A stretch of 64,000 nt of DNA from an uncultured Clostridia bacterium (GTDB lineage Bacteria; Bacillota; Clostridia; Christensenellales; CAG-917), in the NCBI GenBank assembly GCA_934233745.1, contig CAKQGN010000001.1, forward strand, positions 258,621 to 322,620. The letters run 5' to 3'. The notes beneath the pieces are model-generated. The model saw only the letters and a program-made list of their open reading frames with translations. It made no database searches and was not told the DNA's origin. A program made the translations under genes and the position numbers. Below, piece by piece: positions 5,960 to 38,318 of this stretch (within the stretch, counting starts at the first letter, position 1; the number at the start of each line of letters is the position of its first letter).

Positions 5960-6172
5960 AAAAAAATCCGCAATGCCAACAACATTGCGGATATAAAATA
6001 TCGCTCAACGTTGATAGCGCTCCACCTTTAAGGTGACAGTACAACGCATATTCTGCGTTGTCCCAAGAAAGATCGTTTCAGACCAAACAAGTCTTTCTTT
6101 CGGCGGATTTTCCTTTGCCACCGCGACGAAGTCTGCGCCGTCGGCTTATCATAAAATCCGCACCTCTATCGA
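5960..6172 (-). promoter_or_regulatory. lysine riboswitch (L-box) with intrinsic terminator
   Basis: The minus strand reads GATAGAGGTGCGG...GCCGAAAG...TGGGAC...ACTGTCACCTTAAAGGTGGAGCGCTATC. P1 is GATAG/CTATC. The conserved L-box blocks AGAGGUGCG, GCCGAA, CUGUCA and GGAG(A/C)GCU are present. It is followed by the terminator ATCCGCAATG-N7-CATTGCGGAT plus T7 (5961-5992). Confidence 0.8.
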
Positions 6173-6401
6173 GATGATGTACAAAGTTTAGCACGCCGCT
6201 TGCTTAAAGTCCAGCGTTTATGACAAGTTTTTTTCACAAAAAAATATTCTTTTGTCGCTTGCTTTCATGTCGTCATTGCAAAAGTGCGACGACATTGCAT
6301 TGCGACTTGACAAGAAAAGTAACGAAACAAAAATCACAAAAACGCTTGTCTATGTCGCAAAAATGATGTAATATAAGTGAGCAAAACAAATTTAACCTCA
6401 T

Positions 6402-21340: not shown

Positions 21341-23297
21341 AAATACGAAAACCGCACAAGGCAAAAATCCTCAACAAAACAAGTTCAGAGCCAAAAACCC
21401 GATGCAAACCTTAAAGCGTATTCTCGGCTATTGGAAGCCGTTCAAATGTCAGCTTATCGGCGCGCTTTTTTGCATGATTGCAAACGTGCTTTGCAATATA
21501 GCGGGTACGTTCATGCTCGGTTCCGTTGTCGTAAACAACTATATTCTTCCGCTTGCGTACCAGCATGGCGTTTATGTTACGTCAAATGCCGACATAATCG
21601 CAAGGGCGGCGGAGGTTACAATCCAAAGTTTCGGCGGAATTATAGGCGTTATGGCAGCGATGTATGTCGTCGGCGCAGGTCTTCATTATCTTTACAACTA
21701 TATTCTCGTCAGAGTTACGACAAAAACTCTTCAAAACGTTCGTGACGAGATGTTTGAAAAGATGGAAAAACTGCCCATCAGATATTTCGATACTCATACG
21801 CACGGCGATATCATGAGCCTGTACACAAACGACACCGACACGCTGCGCGAATTGCTCTCAAACGGCATTCCCAACCTCATATCGAACTCGCTCACCGTTG
21901 TCGGTATGTTTGTTGCAATGATGCTGGTGTCACCGCTTTTGACGCTTTGTTCTGTCGTGATGCTTGTTATCATGCTCTTTATAATGAAGTTTATCGCAGG
22001 CAAGAGCGGAAAACATTTTGTCGGTCAACAACGCCAGACGGGCGCAATCAACGGCTTTATCGAAGAGCATATAGACGGTCTGAAAGTCGTCAAAGTGTTC
22101 TGTCATGAAGACGAAGAGAAAATCGACTTTGACAAATTCAACGAAGATTTGTTCCATCATTCCGACAAGGCGCACACTTACGCAAACGTCTTGTTCCCGA
22201 TAATGGGCAATCTGTCCTATGTGTCATACGCCGCAACGGCAATTGTGGGTACAATCATGGCAATCGGCGGATTCGGAGGAATGACTTGGGGCGGACTTGT
22301 ATCCTTCATGCAATTCTCACGTCAATTCAGCAATCCGCTCTCGCAAATCGCTCAACAAATGAACGGCGTTCTTATGGCACTTGCAGGCGCGGAGCGTATC
22401 TTTGAATTGATTGACCAACAACCCGAGCAGGACGAAGGCTATGTAACTCTTGTAAACGCAAAAGAGGACGAAGACGGCAACATCGTCGAAACCGATGAAT
22501 ACACCGGCGAGTGGGCGTGGAAGCATTTTCACAAAGCCGACGGCACGACAACGTACGTCAAGTGGAGAGGAGAGGTCGAATTCGAGGATGTATCTTTTGG
22601 GTACGTTCCCGAAAAAACCGTTCTCAAACACGTCACTATGGAAGCGTTGCCGGGACAAAAAATCGCTCTTGTCGGTTCGACGGGTGCGGGCAAAACGACT
22701 ATCACAAATCTTATCAACCGATTCTATGACATCAACGAGGGCAAGATAAGATACGACAACATCAATATAACAAAAATCAAAAAAGACGATTTGCGTCACT
22801 CTATGGCAATGGTTCTTCAAGATACGCACCTCTTCACGGGGACGGTCGCCGACAATATCCGTTTCGGAAAACTGGACGCCACCGACGAGGAAGTCAAAGC
22901 CGCGGCAAAACTCGCAAATGCGGATTACTTTATCCGCCACTTGCCGGAAGGGTATGACACCATGCTTACAGGCGACGGCGAAAACCTTTCGCAAGGTCAA
23001 CGTCAGCTTCTTGCAATCGCTCGCGCCGCAGTCGCAAATCCGCCCGTTCTCATTCTGGACGAAGCGACAAGTTCAATCGACACCCGCACAGAAAAACTTA
23101 TCGAGCAGGGAATGGACAAACTTATGCAAGGTCGCACCGTTTTTGTCATCGCGCACAGACTCTCCACCGTACGCAACTCCGACATGATTTGCGTTCTCGA
23201 ACATGGCGAGATTATCGAGCGCGGCAATCACGAGCAGTTGATTGCGCAGAGGGGGAGGTATTATCAGCTTTACACCGGCGCTTTCGAATTGGAATAA
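21333..23297 (+). CDS. ABC exporter permease/ATPase, subunit with canonical catalytic site
   Basis: Walker A GSTGAGKTT, Walker B LILDEATSSID (catalytic Glu present), non-canonical signature LSQGQRQ. Overlaps the upstream gene by 8 nt. Confidence 0.9.
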   Translation: MRKNTKTAQGKNPQQNKFRAKNPMQTLKRILGYWKPFKCQLIGALFCMIANVLCNIAGTFMLGSVVVNNYILPLAYQHGVYVTSNADIIARAAEVTIQSFGGIIGVMAAMYVVGAGLHYLYNYILVRVTTKTLQNVRDEMFEKMEKLPIRYFDTHTHGDIMSLYTNDTDTLRELLSNGIPNLISNSLTVVGMFVAMMLVSPLLTLCSVVMLVIMLFIMKFIAGKSGKHFVGQQRQTGAINGFIEEHIDGLKVVKVFCHEDEEKIDFDKFNEDLFHHSDKAHTYANVLFPIMGNLSYVSYAATAIVGTIMAIGGFGGMTWGGLVSFMQFSRQFSNPLSQIAQQMNGVLMALAGAERIFELIDQQPEQDEGYVTLVNAKEDEDGNIVETDEYTGEWAWKHFHKADGTTTYVKWRGEVEFEDVSFGYVPEKTVLKHVTMEALPGQKIALVGSTGAGKTTITNLINRFYDINEGKIRYDNINITKIKKDDLRHSMAMVLQDTHLFTGTVADNIRFGKLDATDEEVKAAAKLANADYFIRHLPEGYDTMLTGDGENLSQGQRQLLAIARAAVANPPVLILDEATSSIDTRTEKLIEQGMDKLMQGRTVFVIAHRLSTVRNSDMICVLEHGEIIERGNHEQLIAQRGRYYQLYTGAFELE

Positions 23298-23417
23298 ACG
23301 CACTATTGAGCGAATAACTGCGTCAACACCCTTTTGTTCACCCGTCACGTACACATCAGTACGTTAGGCGGGTTCGCAAAGGGGTGTTTCCTTGTTCTTC
23401 ATCTCAATAGCTCGTTT
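23296..23417 (+). repeat. structured stop-codon-proximal element, copy A
   Basis: Nested helices: AAACGCACTATTGAG/CTCAATAGCTCGTTT, AACACCCTTTTG/CAAAGGGGTGTT, ACCCG/CGGGT, ACGTAC/GTACGT. Starts inside the TAA of the ABC gene. Homologous to 29961-30086. Confidence 0.7.
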
Positions 23418-23698
23418 ATTTATAGTTAAAAAAGGGGCAAGTCCTTGTTTCTCATCTGTTTGCTTTCTGTTATTCCAACTCGAAAGTACGAGTAGCAAGG
23501 GTGTTTCCTTGTTCTTCATCTCAATATTACGTTTATTTACAGTTAAAAGAGGAACAAGCCCTTGTTTCTCATCTGTTTGCTTTTTGTTATTCCAACTCGA
23601 AAGTACGAGTAACAGGGGTGTTTCCTTGTTCTTCATCTCAATAGCGCGTTTATTTATAGTTAAAAGAGGAGCAAGCCCTTGTTTCTCATCTGTTTGCT
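23381..23698 (+). repeat. 117-bp tandem repeat, about 2.7 copies
   Basis: The marker TGTTTCC recurs at 23385, 23502 and 23619 (exact 117-nt period). Units are near-identical, and each contains a diverged half-repeat (GGGGTGTTTCCTTGTTCTTCATCT vs GGGGCAAGTCCTTGTTTCTCATCT). Confidence 0.9.
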
Positions 23699-25516: not shown

Positions 25517-25802
25517 AAGCAAACTCCTTTTAATGTTATTTTAATATTAGAAACAGTATAAACCACATAATCGCATTGCGCAATATTTTTTTTTGTTGCG
25601 CTGTCCATTTTCTCTTGCAACTGTTTTCGAATGGTGGTAAAATCAAATCAACATCTATGGAAGTAGTAGAAATTGCGCGTTAAGTGCCGTGCGAACGTGG
25701 GGTGTCGGCGGACGAAGAGCTTTGCTCGCGGTGCAATATTCACTCCGGACTTCACATATTACCGAAAGGTTTTTTTGCGAGTGCTTCCAAAGGAGGTGCT
25801 TT

Positions 25803-29466: not shown

Positions 29467-29961
29467 ATGAAAGTTGTCATAAAACAAAAGTATTTTACTG
29501 TCGGCGCAAAATTCGAAATCAAAACCACAGAGGGACAAACCGTGTTTTTTGCCGAAAGGCAGTGGGATAGGTTTATGGGGAACGTCGTGCTTTTTGACAA
29601 GGACGGCACACCCGTTGCACGCATGCAGTCAGAATTTAAGAAGGTGTTTACTTCCTGGTTTTCAATCTCGGATTCGCGCGGCAACGAGGTTTGTTGCATC
29701 AACGAAAAACTACCTTTTCTTTGTTTCCGTCGCGCCGAGTCCTCTCATGGCAATCTGAAAGTAAAAATCAAAGCCGGTCCCTTCCATATGAAGGCTTATT
29801 TGCTTAACGAGCAAGGCAAAACTCTTGCCGTCAAAGCTCGCAAAAAGATTCTTGCCATCCGTGACACCTACATCATCGATATCGATGAAAGCAAGATAAA
29901 CCCTGCCTACGGAGTGTTGGTGGGGGTGTGGTATGATTTGGTCTGTCACCCCTCGCATTAA
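29467..29961 (+). CDS. LURP-one-related / tubby C-terminal-like (DUF567-type) protein
   Basis: 164 aa; repeated beta-strand pattern with the internal hydrophobic segment typical of this family; AAGGAGG RBS. Confidence 0.55.
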   Translation: MKVVIKQKYFTVGAKFEIKTTEGQTVFFAERQWDRFMGNVVLFDKDGTPVARMQSEFKKVFTSWFSISDSRGNEVCCINEKLPFLCFRRAESSHGNLKVKIKAGPFHMKAYLLNEQGKTLAVKARKKILAIRDTYIIDIDESKINPAYGVLVGVWYDLVCHPSH

Positions 29962-30086
29962 AACCGCGCTATTGAGCGAATAACTGTGTCAACACCCCTT
30001 GTCCATCAACTCACGTACGTTTATGTACGTTAGGGTTGCTGTTCAAGGGGTGTTTCCTTGTTCTTCATCTCAATATCGCGGTTTTT
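29961..30086 (+). repeat. structured stop-codon-proximal element, copy B
   Basis: 15/16-bp outer stem (AAACCGCGCTATTGAG/CTCAATATCGCGGTTT), 11-bp AACACCCCTTG/CAAGGGGTGTT, CAAC/GTTG, ACGTAC/GTACGT, then T5. Begins at the last base of the TAA stop. Confidence 0.75.
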
Positions 30087-30651
30087 AACTTCCAAACAAT
30101 GCATAAACAGCGTGAACTCTAATTGCAATTTCCCCTTTCCTCACGTGTTTTCCCTATCACCGTTCCCCCTCTGCGTGCCTTGAGGGAACCCACGGTGACC
30201 GCGTAGCGGGGGACAACACTCAGCACTCGCATAGATTGCTATCGTTCTCTTTTTATGTCACTCGTTCGCGGACGAAAAGAATCCAAACTCGTCCGCTCAC
30301 TTGTACTATACGTCAAGCTCGGCGTTCGCTTCCTCGCCGCCGTTGCGGCTCGTGTTCCGTCTTTTAAGTTGCACATTCCGTGTATAAGTACGCCTTGAAA
30401 GAGTGTTCGTTTATCCGCTTGCGCCGAAGGCGCATCCACCAAGCAGACAATCTTGCGAAACTGCGGCAGGAGTTTTTGTCCCTGCTCGAACTGATAGCAA
30501 AGATTTTCTGCGCGGTAGAAATTGCGAAAACAAGCGAGGTCAGTGGCAACCGCCACTGTGTTTGCGTTTCTATTTAGGGGATTCCCACGTCGCTTTGCTC
30601 CTCTGAATGACAGTTGGGGCGGTTGTCATAACCTAGGCGCCGTTTGAGCAA

Positions 30652-30726
30652 ATATCACTTGCGCAAAGCGCAAATATCACTGTTGCCATAGGCAACAATA
30701 TCACGCACACTTTGTGTGCATATCAC
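30652..30726 (-). repeat. GTGATAT-hairpin array, locus 1 (4 heptamers, 3 hairpins)
   Basis: Minus strand: GTGATAT GCACACAAAGTGTGC GTGATAT TGTTGCCTATGGCAACA GTGATAT TTGCGCTTTGCGCAA GTGATAT. Confidence 0.85.
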
Positions 30727-30752
30727 TTACATTGTCGTATAGCCCATTAGCT

Positions 30753-30781
30753 AAAAAAGGACGCTGTATGCGTCCTTTTTT
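30753..30781. terminator. bidirectional intrinsic terminator
   Basis: A6, AAGGACGC/GCGTCCTT stem, T-run; downstream of the minus-strand small genes. Confidence 0.85.
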
Positions 30782-37321: not shown

Positions 37322-38116
37322 ATGATAAAAGGCAAAAATATCGTCATAACCGGCGCAAACAGCGGTATCGGTCTTGAAACTCTCAAATTGCTCGCAAACG
37401 GCGACAACACGATTTTGGCAGTCGACCTGCGTACGGACAGAATCGAGGCTCTCAACAAAAAAAACATTTTCACGATGGTGTGCGACGTGTCCACAAAAGA
37501 GAATGTGGATTTGATTTTCAAAACCGCTGACGAAAAACTCGGCTCAATCGATATATTCTTTGCAAACGCGGGCTTCCCGTATTATGAAACAATGGACTAT
37601 GTCAACTGGGAGCGCATAGAGGACATCTTCAAAGTCAACGTGTTTTCGTCCATTTATACATATCAAAAATACGTCGAATATCTCGGCGGCAAGCAAGGTC
37701 AGATGGCAATCACGGTGTCGGCAATCGGCAAGCTCGCAATGCCCGGCTACACACTGTACAGCGCAAGCAAGTTTGCAATGCAAGGCTTCCAACAAGGTTT
37801 GCGCTACGAGCTTCCCAAAAACGTTGCCCTCACTTGCCTCTATCCGATAGCCACCGACACGGGCTTCTTCAAAAAAGCGGTCGAAGGGCAGGATGGCAAA
37901 GTCATTCGCGAGCGACCGTTCCCCGTGCAAAAACCTCAACACGTTGCCAAATGCATGGTGAGAGGCTTGGAACATAAACGCAAATTTGTCAACCCGTCCA
38001 AACTCTTCACGTTTGCGCAATTCCTCTTTGCAATCTGTCCGCCGATAAAATGGGTGTATCTTAAACTGGAAAAAAACAAGTTGGACAGGTTCGAGGCACA
38101 AAAGGCAAGCAAATAA
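37322..38116 (+). CDS. SDR-family oxidoreductase
   Basis: TGANSGIG cofactor motif and the YSASK catalytic motif. Start at the ATG at 37322. Confidence 0.85.
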   Translation: MIKGKNIVITGANSGIGLETLKLLANGDNTILAVDLRTDRIEALNKKNIFTMVCDVSTKENVDLIFKTADEKLGSIDIFFANAGFPYYETMDYVNWERIEDIFKVNVFSSIYTYQKYVEYLGGKQGQMAITVSAIGKLAMPGYTLYSASKFAMQGFQQGLRYELPKNVALTCLYPIATDTGFFKKAVEGQDGKVIRERPFPVQKPQHVAKCMVRGLEHKRKFVNPSKLFTFAQFLFAICPPIKWVYLKLEKNKLDRFEAQKASK

Positions 38117-38134
38117 ATATACGATGCGCAGCGA

Positions 38135-38225
38135 GTGATATTGTTGCCACGCAACAGTGATATTTTCGGATAGAACCAAAAGTGATATTGCGACTTTGTC
38201 GCAGTGATATTCGCACTTTGTGCGA
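38135..38225 (+). repeat. GTGATAT-hairpin array, locus 2 (4 heptamers, 4 hairpins)
   Basis: GTGATAT TGTTGCCACGCAACA GTGATAT TTTCGGATAGAACCAAAA GTGATAT TGCGACTTTGTCGCA GTGATAT TCGCACTTTGTGCGA. Lies between the SDR stop (38116) and the terminator (38245-38281). Confidence 0.85.
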
Positions 38226-38244
38226 GTTGTGGAATATTTCAAAT

Positions 38245-38281
38245 AAAAGTCCCGACTTTTTACGAGGTCGGGATTTTTTTA
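38245..38281 (+). terminator. intrinsic terminator
   Basis: TCCCGAC-N10-GTCGGGA followed by T7. Confidence 0.85.
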
Positions 38282-38318
38282 TATTTATACATTTTATATG
38301 ATAAAAATAGCGCGCGGA

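What the first reader, a model, noticed from the sequence alone, without database searches (positions are those of the whole stretch)
30652..30726. Second GTGATAT-hairpin array, inverted orientation, located outside a transcription unit
The minus strand reads GTGATAT-GCACACAAAGTGTGC-GTGATAT-TGTTGCCTATGGCAACA-GTGATAT-TTGCGCTTTGCGCAA-GTGATAT. The grammar matches 38135-38225, but every hairpin differs from those at the other locus. One resembles its counterpart (TGTTGCC-ATA-GGCAACA vs TGTTGC-CAC-GCAACA). Here the array lies after the bidirectional terminator (30753-30781) of the small minus-strand genes, not before it. Its function may therefore not depend on being inside a defined 3' UTR. Two independent loci with the same modular syntax argue against chance.
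Basis: seen in the sequence. Interest (0 to 1): 0.7.

Follow-up and report, generated by a model that had tools for sequence, protein, structure and literature searches.

The report
Gut-1-type hairpin array at gene end
This is a real copy of 'Gut-1', a hairpin-array motif known from gut Clostridia since 2010 whose function is still unknown; it behaves as a modular, gain-and-loss element that sits beside transcription terminators at gene ends.

Summary
Window 30652-30726 (minus strand) holds four exact GTGATAT linkers separating three perfect 6-7 bp hairpins. A second array with the same grammar lies at 38135-38225.

It is not new. It matches Rfam Gut-1 RNA (RF01706) at 49.6 bits, E about 1e-8, which is 0.4 bit below the gathering score, so a default scan misses it.

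A genome scan found at least 96 arrays of this kind, all in gut Clostridia. Stem covariation is overwhelming.

New here:
- The unit is a 22-nt module, with 3 to 19 per array.
- 60 of 99 arrays are one half of a back-to-back composite lying between terminators, often 126-132 nt from a convergent tRNA gene.
- Both window arrays are absent from the orthologous sites of six relatives, including one with 99% identical PolA.
- A2 is 99-100% conserved where neutral sites differ by 12-22%.

Best reading (inferred, about 0.4): a gene-end boundary element. It is a cascade of small, orientation-specific hairpins that extends a primary terminator and acts on read-through RNA.

This reading does not explain the GNA/GNRA loops on the opposite strand, the near absence of G·U pairs, or the exact 7-mer. 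Protein-platform and DNA-level readings remain open.

The parts
30647..30728 (-). Array A1: full-length match to Rfam Gut-1 (three hairpins, four linkers)
   Evidence: cmscan gives 49.6 bits, E 5.5e-9, model positions 1-77 of 77. My clade-specific model R1 gives 72.8 bits, but A1 was in its training set.
30720..30726 (-). Linker 1, GTGATAT
30705..30719 (-). Hairpin 1, GCACAC-AAA-GTGTGC (6 bp stem, 3-nt loop)
30698..30704 (-). Linker 2, GTGATAT
30681..30697 (-). Hairpin 2, TGTTGCC-TAT-GGCAACA (7 bp stem, 3-nt loop)
30674..30680 (-). Linker 3, GTGATAT
30659..30673 (-). Hairpin 3, TTGCGC-TTT-GCGCAA (6 bp stem, 3-nt loop). The same hairpin occurs in arrays of L024, L082 and L102.
30652..30658 (-). 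Linker 4, GTGATAT
30727..30752 (-). 26-nt leader between the terminator and the array. It contains TATACGA (30735-30741), which also precedes A2.
   Evidence: The sequence diverges from the 99% relative L124 directly after ...TTTTTTAGCTAA.
30753..30781 (.). Bidirectional intrinsic terminator AAAAAAGGACGC-ATACA-GCGTCCTTTTTT, serving the two small minus-strand genes. It is conserved in L124.
38135..38225 (+). Sister array A2: four linkers and four hairpins in the 3'UTR of the SDR gene
   Evidence: It is 98.9-100% identical in L255, L274, L284 and L295 and absent from L124-L129.
38226..38240 (+). Terminal variant linker GTTGTGGAATATTTC, which closes arrays of this sub-class. Versions of it occur in L024, L080, L082, L115 and L118.
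38245..38278 (+). Intrinsic terminator of the SDR gene. It is present in all relatives, whether or not they carry the array.

Best explanation
Identity (shown): A1 is a member of the Gut-1 family (Rfam RF01706), in the GUGAUAU-linker variant. The family is built from 22-nt modules. Each module is a 7-nt linker plus a 5-7 bp hairpin with a 3-4 nt loop; the hairpin's sequence is free, but its pairing is maintained.

Behaviour (shown): it is a dispersed, chromosomal, intergenic element of gut Clostridia. It can be present or absent at a given site, sits next to intrinsic terminators at gene ends, and is under purifying selection where present.

Mechanism (inferred): it is a gene-end boundary element that acts in the nascent RNA of transcripts running past the end of the neighbouring gene. 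Three properties hold in the GUGAUAU orientation only. Each stem is lengthened by UAU...GUG pairing. Each hairpin is followed by an A/U-rich tail (AUAUU plus the U-rich start of the next hairpin). The hairpins are stacked head to tail. The array would therefore work as a cascade of weak, orientation-specific terminator or pause hairpins that backs up a primary terminator, and/or as a block to 3'-exonucleases that defines the 3' end. For A1 this would act on read-through from the two small minus-strand genes. Back-to-back composites would do the same for both of two convergent transcription units.
For: Identity:
- Rfam match at 49.6 bits, E 5.5e-9.
- The 2010 seed alignment contains GUGAUAU members and composites.

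Structure:
- Among 214 unique hairpins, 1276 pairs are Watson-Crick and 20 are not.
- All 21 modelled pairs show changes on both sides. There are 307 double-change cells against 86 +/- 8 in shuffles, and the covariation score is 0.617 against at most 0.136 for slid controls.

Selection:
- A2 has 0-1 changes in 91 nt where codon position 3 of the adjacent gene is 78-88% identical and the terminator region 83-88%.

Placement:
- A terminator of the convergent gene abuts 48 of 49 composites.
- 16 of 95 loci have a tRNA or tmRNA gene within 500 nt; in 10 of them it lies a fixed 126-132 nt away and is convergent.
- Isolated arrays follow a co-oriented gene 14 times against 5, and the gene beyond the composite's second half is convergent 22 times against 5.

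Orientation-specific features:
- A U-rich tail follows 45% of units in sense and 0% in antisense. Mean hairpin energy is -8.8 in sense against -7.1 kcal/mol in antisense.
- A1 folds to -31.2 on the named strand against -24.5 kcal/mol on the other.
- The tool's terminator scan flags array units in excess of shuffles.

Linker as U-tract:
- Next to the strong terminal hairpin (mean -19.3 kcal/mol), the linker is GUUAUAU or GUUUUAU in 36 of 46 composites. Further in, GUGAUAU dominates.

No protein partner nearby:
- The best protein family recurs in only 9 of 95 loci.
Against: - The units are poor terminators by usual standards: stems of about -9 kcal/mol, and tails that begin AUAU rather than a U run. 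Only 45% pass even a loose criterion.
- A1 follows an already strong terminator, and A2 precedes one, so the benefit is unclear.
- An A/U-rich tail does not need an exactly conserved 7-mer. That points to a sequence-specific partner.
- Loops are G-N-A or G-N-R-A, closed by C-G, on the opposite strand.
- G.U pairs inside stems are nearly absent and no commoner than A.C (8 against 17 pooled, in the GTGATAT frame). Neither this nor the loop polarity is expected for an RNA selected on the GUGAUAU strand.
- The composite centre looks like a promoter firing the other way through the second half.
- The gene-orientation bias is modest and rests on crude open-frame calls.
- No expression data were available.
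Confidence: 0.4

Rival explanations
1. Protein-binding RNA, which is the Rfam 'sRNA' reading. The array displays the single-stranded GUGAUAU motif 3-4 times between rigid hairpins. This makes a multivalent platform or sponge for an unknown RNA-binding protein or endoribonuclease, analogous in logic to CsrB/RsmZ. It would be made either as a 3'UTR-derived RNA or as a stand-alone RNA.
For: - The 7-mer is exactly conserved across many species while the stems vary.
- The whole A2 sequence is under strong purifying selection.
- Several isolated arrays sit between a divergent gene start and their own terminator, like small RNA genes (L029, L046).
- Weinberg et al. classed the motif as a noncoding RNA.
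Against: - No candidate protein is encoded near the arrays.
- Many arrays start within a few nt of an upstream terminator's T-run, leaving no room for a promoter.
- The linker is degenerate in one half of the composites.
- Loop polarity and the lack of G.U are unexplained, as they are for the best explanation.
Confidence: 0.2
2. DNA-level element. The hairpins form in single-stranded or supercoiled DNA on the ATATCAC strand. There they would serve as a structural or recognition element at gene ends: a REP/BIME-like site for gyrase or for an HUH-type enzyme, or supercoil-extruded hairpins like those of phage N4 early promoters.
For: - Stems are about 98.5% Watson-Crick, with A.C as common as G.T.
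- Loops are mostly C-GNA-G triloops (GAA, GTA, GCA) and GNRA tetraloops, on one strand only and always the strand carrying ATATCAC. This holds whichever half or orientation is examined. From my own knowledge, d(C-GNA-G) is the most stable DNA triloop class, and 5-7 bp stems with such loops extrude at N4 promoters.
- Arrays occur in both orientations relative to neighbouring genes and as inverted pairs.
- Presence/absence polymorphism and mosaic association with other small repeats fit a repeat-element biology.
Against: - No transposase or other recurrent gene lies nearby. No target-site duplication or terminal inverted repeats are evident at the A2 filled and empty sites.
- The window's own loops are AAA, TAT, TTT and CAC, not GNA.
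- There is a bias for the GTGATAT strand to be RNA-sense.
- I know of no precedent for such chromosomal hairpin arrays.
Confidence: 0.17
3. Promoter-associated element, with the functional RNA on the strand opposite to Rfam's. In composites, the last GTGATAT unit plus the centre form a sigma-70-type promoter (TTGAAA, 16-17 nt, TG-n-TATTAT). It would drive a roughly 120-nt small RNA made of (hairpin-AUAUCAC) x4 that ends at the shared terminator. Arrays with exact GTGATAT linkers, such as A1 and A2, would then be upstream or orphan regulatory arrays, or targets.
For: - 79% of composite centres have a -10-like hexamer (A2 and T6) with a 16-18 nt spacer, against 19-20% of internal linkers. At least 9 of 12 matches are reached by 30% against 0%.
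- The tool calls TTGAAA-16-TATTAT with an upstream TG in L009.
- The transcribed half would carry GNA/GNRA loops in the RNA sense. Its hairpins are more conserved between loci than those of the other half.
Against: - Neither window array has such a promoter.
- Covarying hairpins in the supposedly untranscribed half have no role in this model.
- Linkers of the two halves do not covary, so pairing between them is not supported.
- Consensus promoter matches are not evidence of function.
Confidence: 0.1
4. A selfish miniature repeat (MITE- or REP-like) with no function for the host. It would spread to terminator-proximal sites and keep its hairpins only because they are needed for mobilisation.
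For: - Both window arrays are absent from orthologous sites in relatives, including L124 with 99% identical PolA.
- The A1 intergenic region is a patchwork of other small repeats (R1, X, Y) and rearrangements.
- Gene neighbourhoods are unrelated.
- Tandem duplications of blocks occur (L080, L108).
Against: - A fixed copy of a selfish element should decay neutrally. A2 shows 0-1 changes in 91 nt against 12-22% neutral divergence.
- Composites are kept at orthologous sites across species, with compensatory changes in their stems.
- The layout relative to tRNA genes is stereotyped.
Confidence: 0.1

Closest known systems
Gut-1 RNA motif (Rfam RF01706; Weinberg et al. 2010, Genome Biol 11:R31)
   Same: Identical grammar: three hairpins separated and flanked by a conserved 7-mer. 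A1 aligns over the full model at 49.6 bits. The habitat is the same, gut Clostridia. The 2010 seed alignment already contains GUGAUAU linkers, terminators just upstream of the motif, and tRNA-adjacent composites.
   Different: The Rfam consensus linker is GUGAAAU and the model is fixed at three hairpins. A1 falls 0.4 bit below the gathering score, and A2 (four hairpins, one of them irregular) scores only 28.9 bits in a shifted register. The family is really modular, with 3-19 units, and is often composite. No function has been published.
REP/BIME elements of enterobacteria (and REPINs)
   Same: Short extragenic palindromic units with a conserved flanking motif. They occur in tandem or inverted clusters at the 3' ends of genes and between convergent genes, are mosaic with other small modules, and vary between strains. 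Their known roles (from my own knowledge) are mRNA 3'-end protection, termination and gyrase binding.
   Different: The REP palindrome sequence is conserved within a genome, whereas here only the 7-mer is. REPs are about 35 nt, against 15-17 nt here. No RAYT-type transposase was looked for genome-wide, and none is nearby.
Pneumococcal BOX elements (boxA-boxB(n)-boxC)
   Same: A modular intergenic repeat with a variable number of internal tandem modules, strong predicted secondary structure, dispersal near gene ends and differences between strains (from my own knowledge).
   Different: BOX modules are 45-59 nt and conserved in sequence. I expect no sequence similarity but did not test it. The host clade is different.
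Tandem or fail-safe intrinsic terminators
   Same: G+C-rich short-loop hairpins followed by A/U-rich tails. They are orientation-specific, placed at gene ends, and back-to-back for convergent genes.
   Different: The tails are AUAUU... rather than U runs, and the stems are only about -9 kcal/mol. An invariant 7-mer is not a feature of terminators.
CRISPR arrays
   Same: Superficially similar: a constant short sequence alternates with variable sequences at a regular period.
   Different: The constant part is 7 nt, not 23-55. The variable parts are 13-19 nt perfect palindromes. No cas genes or other recurrent genes are nearby. Arrays have 3-4 units and are stable between strains.
Phage N4 virion-RNA-polymerase promoter hairpins
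   Same: DNA hairpins with 5-7 bp stems and 3-nt purine-rich loops on one strand, a geometry that can extrude from supercoiled DNA (from my own knowledge).
   Different: Those are single phage promoters recognised by a phage polymerase. Here the arrays are chromosomal, and only 1 of 120 viral pattern hits has palindromic spacers.

Membership tests
Gut-1 RNA (RF01706) | Covariance-model score at or above Rfam's gathering score (50 bits) | tested here: inconclusive
   A1 scores 49.6 bits, E 5.5e-9 to 2e-8, full length 1-77. That is 0.4 bit short but highly significant. A2 scores 28.9 bits, E 1.4e-3, in a shifted register. Many sister arrays in L009, L013, L028, L080, L082, L097, L102 and L105 pass the threshold.
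Gut-1 RNA (RF01706) | Three consecutive hairpins, each flanked by the conserved 7-mer GUGA(A/U)AU | tested here: met
   Direct reading and the alignment to the model. GUGAUAU linkers are present in the 2010 seed.
Gut-1 RNA (RF01706) | Stems supported by covariation | tested here: met
   All 21 pairs show double changes; covariation score 0.617 against 0.160 in shuffles (0 of 500 reach it) and at most 0.136 for slid controls.
Gut-1 RNA (RF01706) | Habitat: gut Firmicutes/Clostridia, intergenic | tested here: met
   96 of 120 genome hits are family arrays, and all are in Clostridia MAGs from gut samples. The window's relatives come from human-gut assemblies.
Gut-1 RNA (RF01706) | Functions as a transcribed noncoding RNA on the GUGAUAU strand | not testable with these tools
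   No expression data. The indirect evidence is mixed: gene-context bias and U-rich tails favour this strand, while loop polarity and wobble counts favour the other strand or DNA.
CRISPR array | Repeats of 23-55 nt, unique non-palindromic spacers, cas genes or a leader | tested here: not met
   The constant part is 7 nt and the spacers are palindromes. No gene family recurs nearby.
REP/BIME (RAYT-mobilised) | Palindrome sequence conserved within a genome, with a GTAG-type foot | tested here: not met
   Hairpin sequences differ within and between arrays. Only the 7-mer is constant.
REP/BIME (RAYT-mobilised) | A cognate RAYT/Y1 transposase gene in the genome, flanked by the repeats | not tested
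   Only neighbourhoods of 8 kb or less were examined, and they held no recurrent family. No whole genome was available.
Type III toxin-antitoxin antitoxin repeats (ToxI-like) | Near-identical tandem repeats directly upstream of a toxin endoribonuclease gene | tested here: not met
   The units are not identical and no conserved adjacent gene exists.
Intrinsic (rho-independent) terminator | Stable G+C-rich hairpin immediately followed by a U-tract | tested here: inconclusive
   45% of units pass a loose tail criterion in sense, against 0% in antisense. Mean stem energy is -8.8 kcal/mol, so the units are weak by usual standards. Linkers next to the strong terminal hairpin are more U-rich.
Iterons / tandem protein-binding sites on double-stranded DNA | Directly repeated sites at a helical period with no need for intervening palindromes; an adjacent replication or partition gene | tested here: not met
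   The 22-bp period fits. However, the intervening sequences are maintained as palindromes by compensatory change, and no associated gene recurs.

The most novel reading that the evidence does not exclude
Gut-1 arrays are not small RNAs. They are a chromosomal DNA-structure element: 5-7 bp hairpins capped by C-GNA-G triloops on one DNA strand, phased every 22 nt by an invariant 7-mer. They would form in single-stranded or supercoiled DNA at gene ends (especially downstream of tRNA operons) and be read by a so far unknown protein, as a boundary, supercoil-relief or recombination site. A weaker variant of this reading is that the real RNA product lies on the strand opposite to the Rfam annotation and is driven by the promoter-like centre of the composites.
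Probability: 0.17. Interest if true: 0.8.

Novelty: new member of a known kind. Interest (0 to 1): 0.42.

Why it matters
Gut-1 has been an orphan motif for over 15 years, described in a single sentence ('detected only in human gut sequences'). This window shows it in an assembled genome context, and with the related loci it turns a bare motif into a testable object.

- The unit is defined: a 22-nt module.
- The layout is stereotyped: arrays abut terminators, and back-to-back composites lie at the ends of tRNA operons.
- Natural filled and empty sites are available for reporter experiments. A2 is present in the window and in L255, L274, L284 and L295, and absent in L124.
- There is clear evidence of selection.
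- Two sharp anomalies, loop polarity and the lack of wobble pairs, discriminate between RNA-level and DNA-level mechanisms.

If the arrays are fail-safe terminators or boundary elements, they bear on how abundant uncultured gut Clostridia insulate neighbouring transcription units, and on annotating those genomes. Practically, the Rfam model with its GUGAAAU consensus, fixed three hairpins and 50-bit cut-off misses many true members, including both copies here.

Tried and rejected
- **Chance or low complexity:** rejected.
- **CRISPR-like array, type III antitoxin repeats, iterons, integron attC:** rejected on defining features (see the membership tests).
- **Phage origin:** the same pattern on viral contigs gave 120 hits, but only one has palindromic spacers.
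- **A long-range 'ladder' fold pairing GUGAUAU linkers with the AUAUCAC linkers of the other composite half:** rejected because the linkers do not covary. Exact GTGATAT x4 can face ATATAAC x4.
- **Guilt by association:** all-against-all clustering of 642 ORFs from 95 loci found no recurrent neighbour; the best family is in 9 loci, at a median of 2.9 kb away.
- **Same-protein look-up (CoaE):** returned only the same strain, which was uninformative.
- **Module gain or loss in 22-nt steps between strains:** not seen. Arrays are wholly present or wholly absent.
- **Target-site duplication at the A2 insertion:** AAATAA flanks both sides, but the right-hand copy also exists, with one mismatch, at the empty site. 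This is not convincing.
- **Literature searches** for 'Gut-1' and for the 7-mers found only the 2010 paper.
- **The TATACGA leader** shared by A1 and A2 is not a family feature. The metagenome scan returned only the A2 locus itself in other assemblies.
- **The RNAalifold consensus** used for my model R1 captured only two of the three hairpins, so covariation was counted on a hand-written structure instead.

Full report
**1. Observation**

The minus strand of window 30652-30726 reads GTGATAT-GCACACAAAGTGTGC-GTGATAT-TGTTGCCTATGGCAACA-GTGATAT-TTGCGCTTTGCGCAA-GTGATAT. The array at 38135-38225 has the same grammar on the plus strand, with four hairpins.

GTGATAT occurs 15 times in the window against 5.2 +/- 2.2 expected (0 of 100 shuffles reach 15), and eight copies lie in the two arrays. 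A relaxed scan for linker, perfect stem, linker finds only these two places, and none in 20 shuffled windows. Each array folds into discrete hairpins on either strand, as RNA or DNA, with z-scores of -3 to -5. On the named strand the flanks UAU...GUG add three pairs to each stem, giving -31.2 against -24.5 kcal/mol for A1.

The window is a bacterial chromosome (lysine and THF riboswitches, tRNAs, folate genes, polA, coaE). Relatives are annotated only as uncultured gut Clostridiales. A1 lies 26 nt past a bidirectional terminator (30753-30781) that ends two small minus-strand genes. A2 lies between the stop codon of a short-chain dehydrogenase (SDR) gene and its terminator.

**2. Identity**

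With the E-value threshold, Rfam matches A1 (30647-30728, minus strand) to RF01706 Gut-1 RNA over the whole model. The score is 49.6 bits against a gathering score of 50, with E 5.5e-9. This is why the default scan was silent. The Rfam consensus is three hairpins joined by GUGAAAU. A2 reaches only 28.9 bits, in a shifted register.

Weinberg et al. 2010 reported 43 examples, 'human gut only'. They judged it an RNA that is neither cis-regulatory nor a riboswitch, and gave it one sentence of description. Their seed alignment already contains GUGAUAU linkers and annotates terminators just upstream of the motif, including one next to a tRNA gene. I found no later literature.

**3. The family**

Of these, 95 loci (99 arrays, counting the window's two) have palindromic spacers. 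All are MAGs of Oscillospiraceae, Acutalibacteraceae, Ruminococcus, Christensenella or unclassified Clostridia from gut samples. The hits in other phyla are ordinary tandem repeats. That serves as a specificity control and shows that the family is chromosomal.

Among 214 unique hairpins between exact linkers:
- Stems are 5-7 bp and loops are 3 nt (112 cases) or 4 nt (68 cases).
- Pairs are 1276 Watson-Crick, 6 G.T, 12 A.C and 2 other.

On an alignment of 60 arrays, all 21 pairs of the three hairpins change on both sides. There are 307 double-change cells against 86 +/- 8 in shuffles. The covariation score is 0.617, against 0.160 in shuffles (0 of 500 reach it) and at most 0.136 for slid controls. 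Arrays have three or four linkers in 97 of 99 cases. Larger arrays also exist: L108 has 19 units built from a three-hairpin super-repeat, and L080 has a tandemly duplicated block.

**4. Architecture**

Sixty of the 99 arrays are one half of a composite laid out as:
- (GTGATAT-hairpin) x3-4,
- then T(A/T/C)TATTCGCC,
- then (hairpin-ATATCAC-like linker) x4,
- then a strong terminal hairpin (mean -19.3 kcal/mol).

The second half is a Gut-1 array on the other strand, and Rfam hits both strands side by side, for example L009 1554-1625 (+) and 1646-1727 (-). Linkers of the second half are degenerate (ATATCAC 80, ATATAAC 54, ATAAAAC 20, ATAGAAC 15, ATACCAC 12) and do not covary with the exact GTGATAT of the first half. 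That excludes a fold that pairs the two sets of linkers.

A terminator for the convergent gene abuts 48 of 49 composites. Sixteen of 95 loci have a tRNA or tmRNA gene within 500 nt; in ten of them it is convergent and 126-132 nt from the array. No protein family recurs in the neighbourhoods: the best is in 9 of 95 loci, at a median of 2.9 kb.

Isolated arrays like the window's end in a variant linker (GTTGTGGAATATT and relatives) and often a terminator. With clear open-frame calls, they follow a co-oriented gene 14 times against 5, and the gene beyond the composite's second half is convergent 22 times against 5.

**5. Related strains**

Contigs that encode the identical CoaE are the same strain and carry both arrays unchanged. 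Six relatives were reached through PolA homologues (99, 90, 89, 88, 89 and 87% identity) and keep the synteny MFS, patatin, polA, coaE, SDR.

None of them has A2. The SDR stop codon and the same terminator are there, with a different short 3'UTR between them. In three relatives that UTR holds a fragment of another repeat. None has A1 either. The 99% relative (L124) is identical up to the end of the shared terminator and then continues with sequence found nowhere in the window. A clade-specific covariance model finds no array in 128 kb of these relatives.

Conversely, a metagenome scan recovered the A2 locus in four other gut assemblies. There the 91-nt array is 98.9-100% identical, while codon position 3 of the adjacent SDR gene is 78-88% identical and the tail-plus-terminator segment (38226-38285) 83-88%. 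With about 18% neutral divergence, zero changes in 91 nt has a probability near 1e-8. One variant (L295) even removes the bulge of hairpin 2.

So whole arrays are gained or lost, and are strongly constrained once present. Module number did not vary.

The A1 intergenic region is a mosaic. It holds a self-inverted roughly 125-nt repeat (R1), two further repeats (X, Y) that accompany arrays in L024 and L080 in a different order, and a conserved structured block (Z) that is inverted relative to the relatives.

**6. Mechanism**

Several features point to an RNA-level gene-end element that acts in the GUGAUAU orientation:
- The placement statistics in section 4.
- The stem extension by G.U pairs, which exists only on that strand.
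- A/U-rich tails after 45% of units in sense, against 0% in antisense.
- Repeated flagging of array units by the terminator scan, above shuffle expectation.
- A gradient in which the linker next to the strong terminal hairpin is GUUAUAU or GUUUUAU in 36 of 46 composites, while GUGAUAU dominates further in. The linker there looks like the U-tract of the primary terminator.

I therefore favour a cascade of weak, orientation-specific terminator or pause hairpins, and/or a barrier to 3'-exonucleases, that backs up a primary terminator. Back-to-back composites would serve both convergent units. This is inference; nothing here measures transcription.

**7. What does not fit**

- Loops read G-N-A or G-N-R-A, closed by C-G, on the strand carrying ATATCAC. 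This holds in both halves and in isolated arrays (TTC 25, TGC 15, TAC 11, TTGC 10, TTAC 8 on the GTGATAT strand; GAA 71, GTA 26, GTAA 9 in second halves).
- Wobble pairs are nearly absent, and pooled they are commoner in the ATATCAC frame (17 against 8).
- The 7-mer is exact where a mere U-rich tail would not require it.
- The composite centre is promoter-like: -35 TTGAAA/TTGAAG from the last hairpin, a 16-17 nt spacer, then TG-n-TATTAT. The key features are present in 79% of centres against 19-20% of internal linkers. A promoter there would transcribe the second half in the AUAUCAC sense.

These points keep three rivals alive: a protein-binding RNA platform, a DNA-level hairpin element, and an RNA on the opposite strand. 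A purely selfish repeat is disfavoured by the conservation of A2.

**8. Verdict**

The finding is real and well described, but it is a member of a known orphan family, not a new kind. Its position past a terminator is typical for that family. The family-level observations made here are new as far as I could find, and they make the old question of what Gut-1 does experimentally tractable.

Noticed in passing
window 29960-30086; also 23296-23420, 23499-23540, 23614-23654: R1, a self-inverted (74% to its own reverse complement) MITE-like repeat of about 125 nt, with several copies in the window. Fragments or copies also lie in the SDR 3'UTR of relatives L125, L128 and L129, and they flank block Z in L125.
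   Followed up: partly
window 30415-30550 (Y) and about 30583-30625 (X), plus strand: Two further small conserved noncoding repeats next to A1. Y is 78-80% identical to L080 1726-1853, L080 3512-3693 and L024 6719-6894. X (GGATTCCCACG...CTCTGAATGACAG) follows the arrays of L024 and L118. The module order differs: Y-X-array in the window, array-X-Y in L024, and X-Y without an array in L127. Neither has an Rfam match.
   Followed up: partly
window 30105-30372 (+); L125 5555-5825(-), L126 5975-6243(-), L128 6041-6311(-): Block Z, a noncoding region of about 250 nt conserved at 77-83% between species. Its predicted multi-hairpin structure has 54 pairs, 6 of them with compensatory changes. No gene is called there and there is no Rfam hit. 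It is inverted in the window relative to the relatives. It could be an unknown structured RNA, but the evidence rests on only four sequences.
   Followed up: partly
L009 1520-1730 and about 50 other composites (for example L013, L044, L111): The centre of the back-to-back composites is sigma-70 promoter-like (TTGAAA, 16-17 nt, TG-n-TATTAT). It points into the (hairpin-AUAUCAC) x4 half, which ends at a bidirectional terminator shared with a convergent tRNA gene. If the promoter is real, the RNA product is on the strand opposite to the Rfam Gut-1 annotation for those copies.
   Followed up: partly
L108 (about 19 linkers) and L080 1960-2190: Arrays can expand by tandem duplication of blocks. L108 repeats a three-hairpin unit about six times, and L080 duplicates a 154-nt block (array plus tail).
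   Followed up: no
arrays of the window, L024, L080, L082, L102, L115, L118: The same hairpins (TTGCGC..GCGCAA, TCTCGC..GCGAGA, TCGCAC..GTGCGA, TTTTGGC..GCCAAAA, TGCGAC..GTCGCA) recur in different orders at unrelated loci. This suggests that whole 22-nt units are shuffled between arrays.
   Followed up: no
window 30647-30728 and 38112-38193: The Rfam gathering threshold for RF01706 (50 bits) excludes both window copies, at 49.6 and 28.9 bits. The fixed three-hairpin, GUGAAAU-based model under-detects this clade's arrays.
   Followed up: yes
L124 1-30 (reverse strand), compared with window 30727-30752: Two strains with 99% identical PolA share the terminator of the small genes but have unrelated sequence immediately beyond it. 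Assemblies L122, L123 and L124 also all break in or near this region, which marks it as a repeat-rich rearrangement hot spot.
   Followed up: partly
window 6007-6176 (-), 25660-25753 (+): Lysine and THF riboswitches at Rfam gathering score. The THF riboswitch precedes the folate-gene cluster that ends just upstream of the A1 region. These are ordinary features.
   Followed up: no
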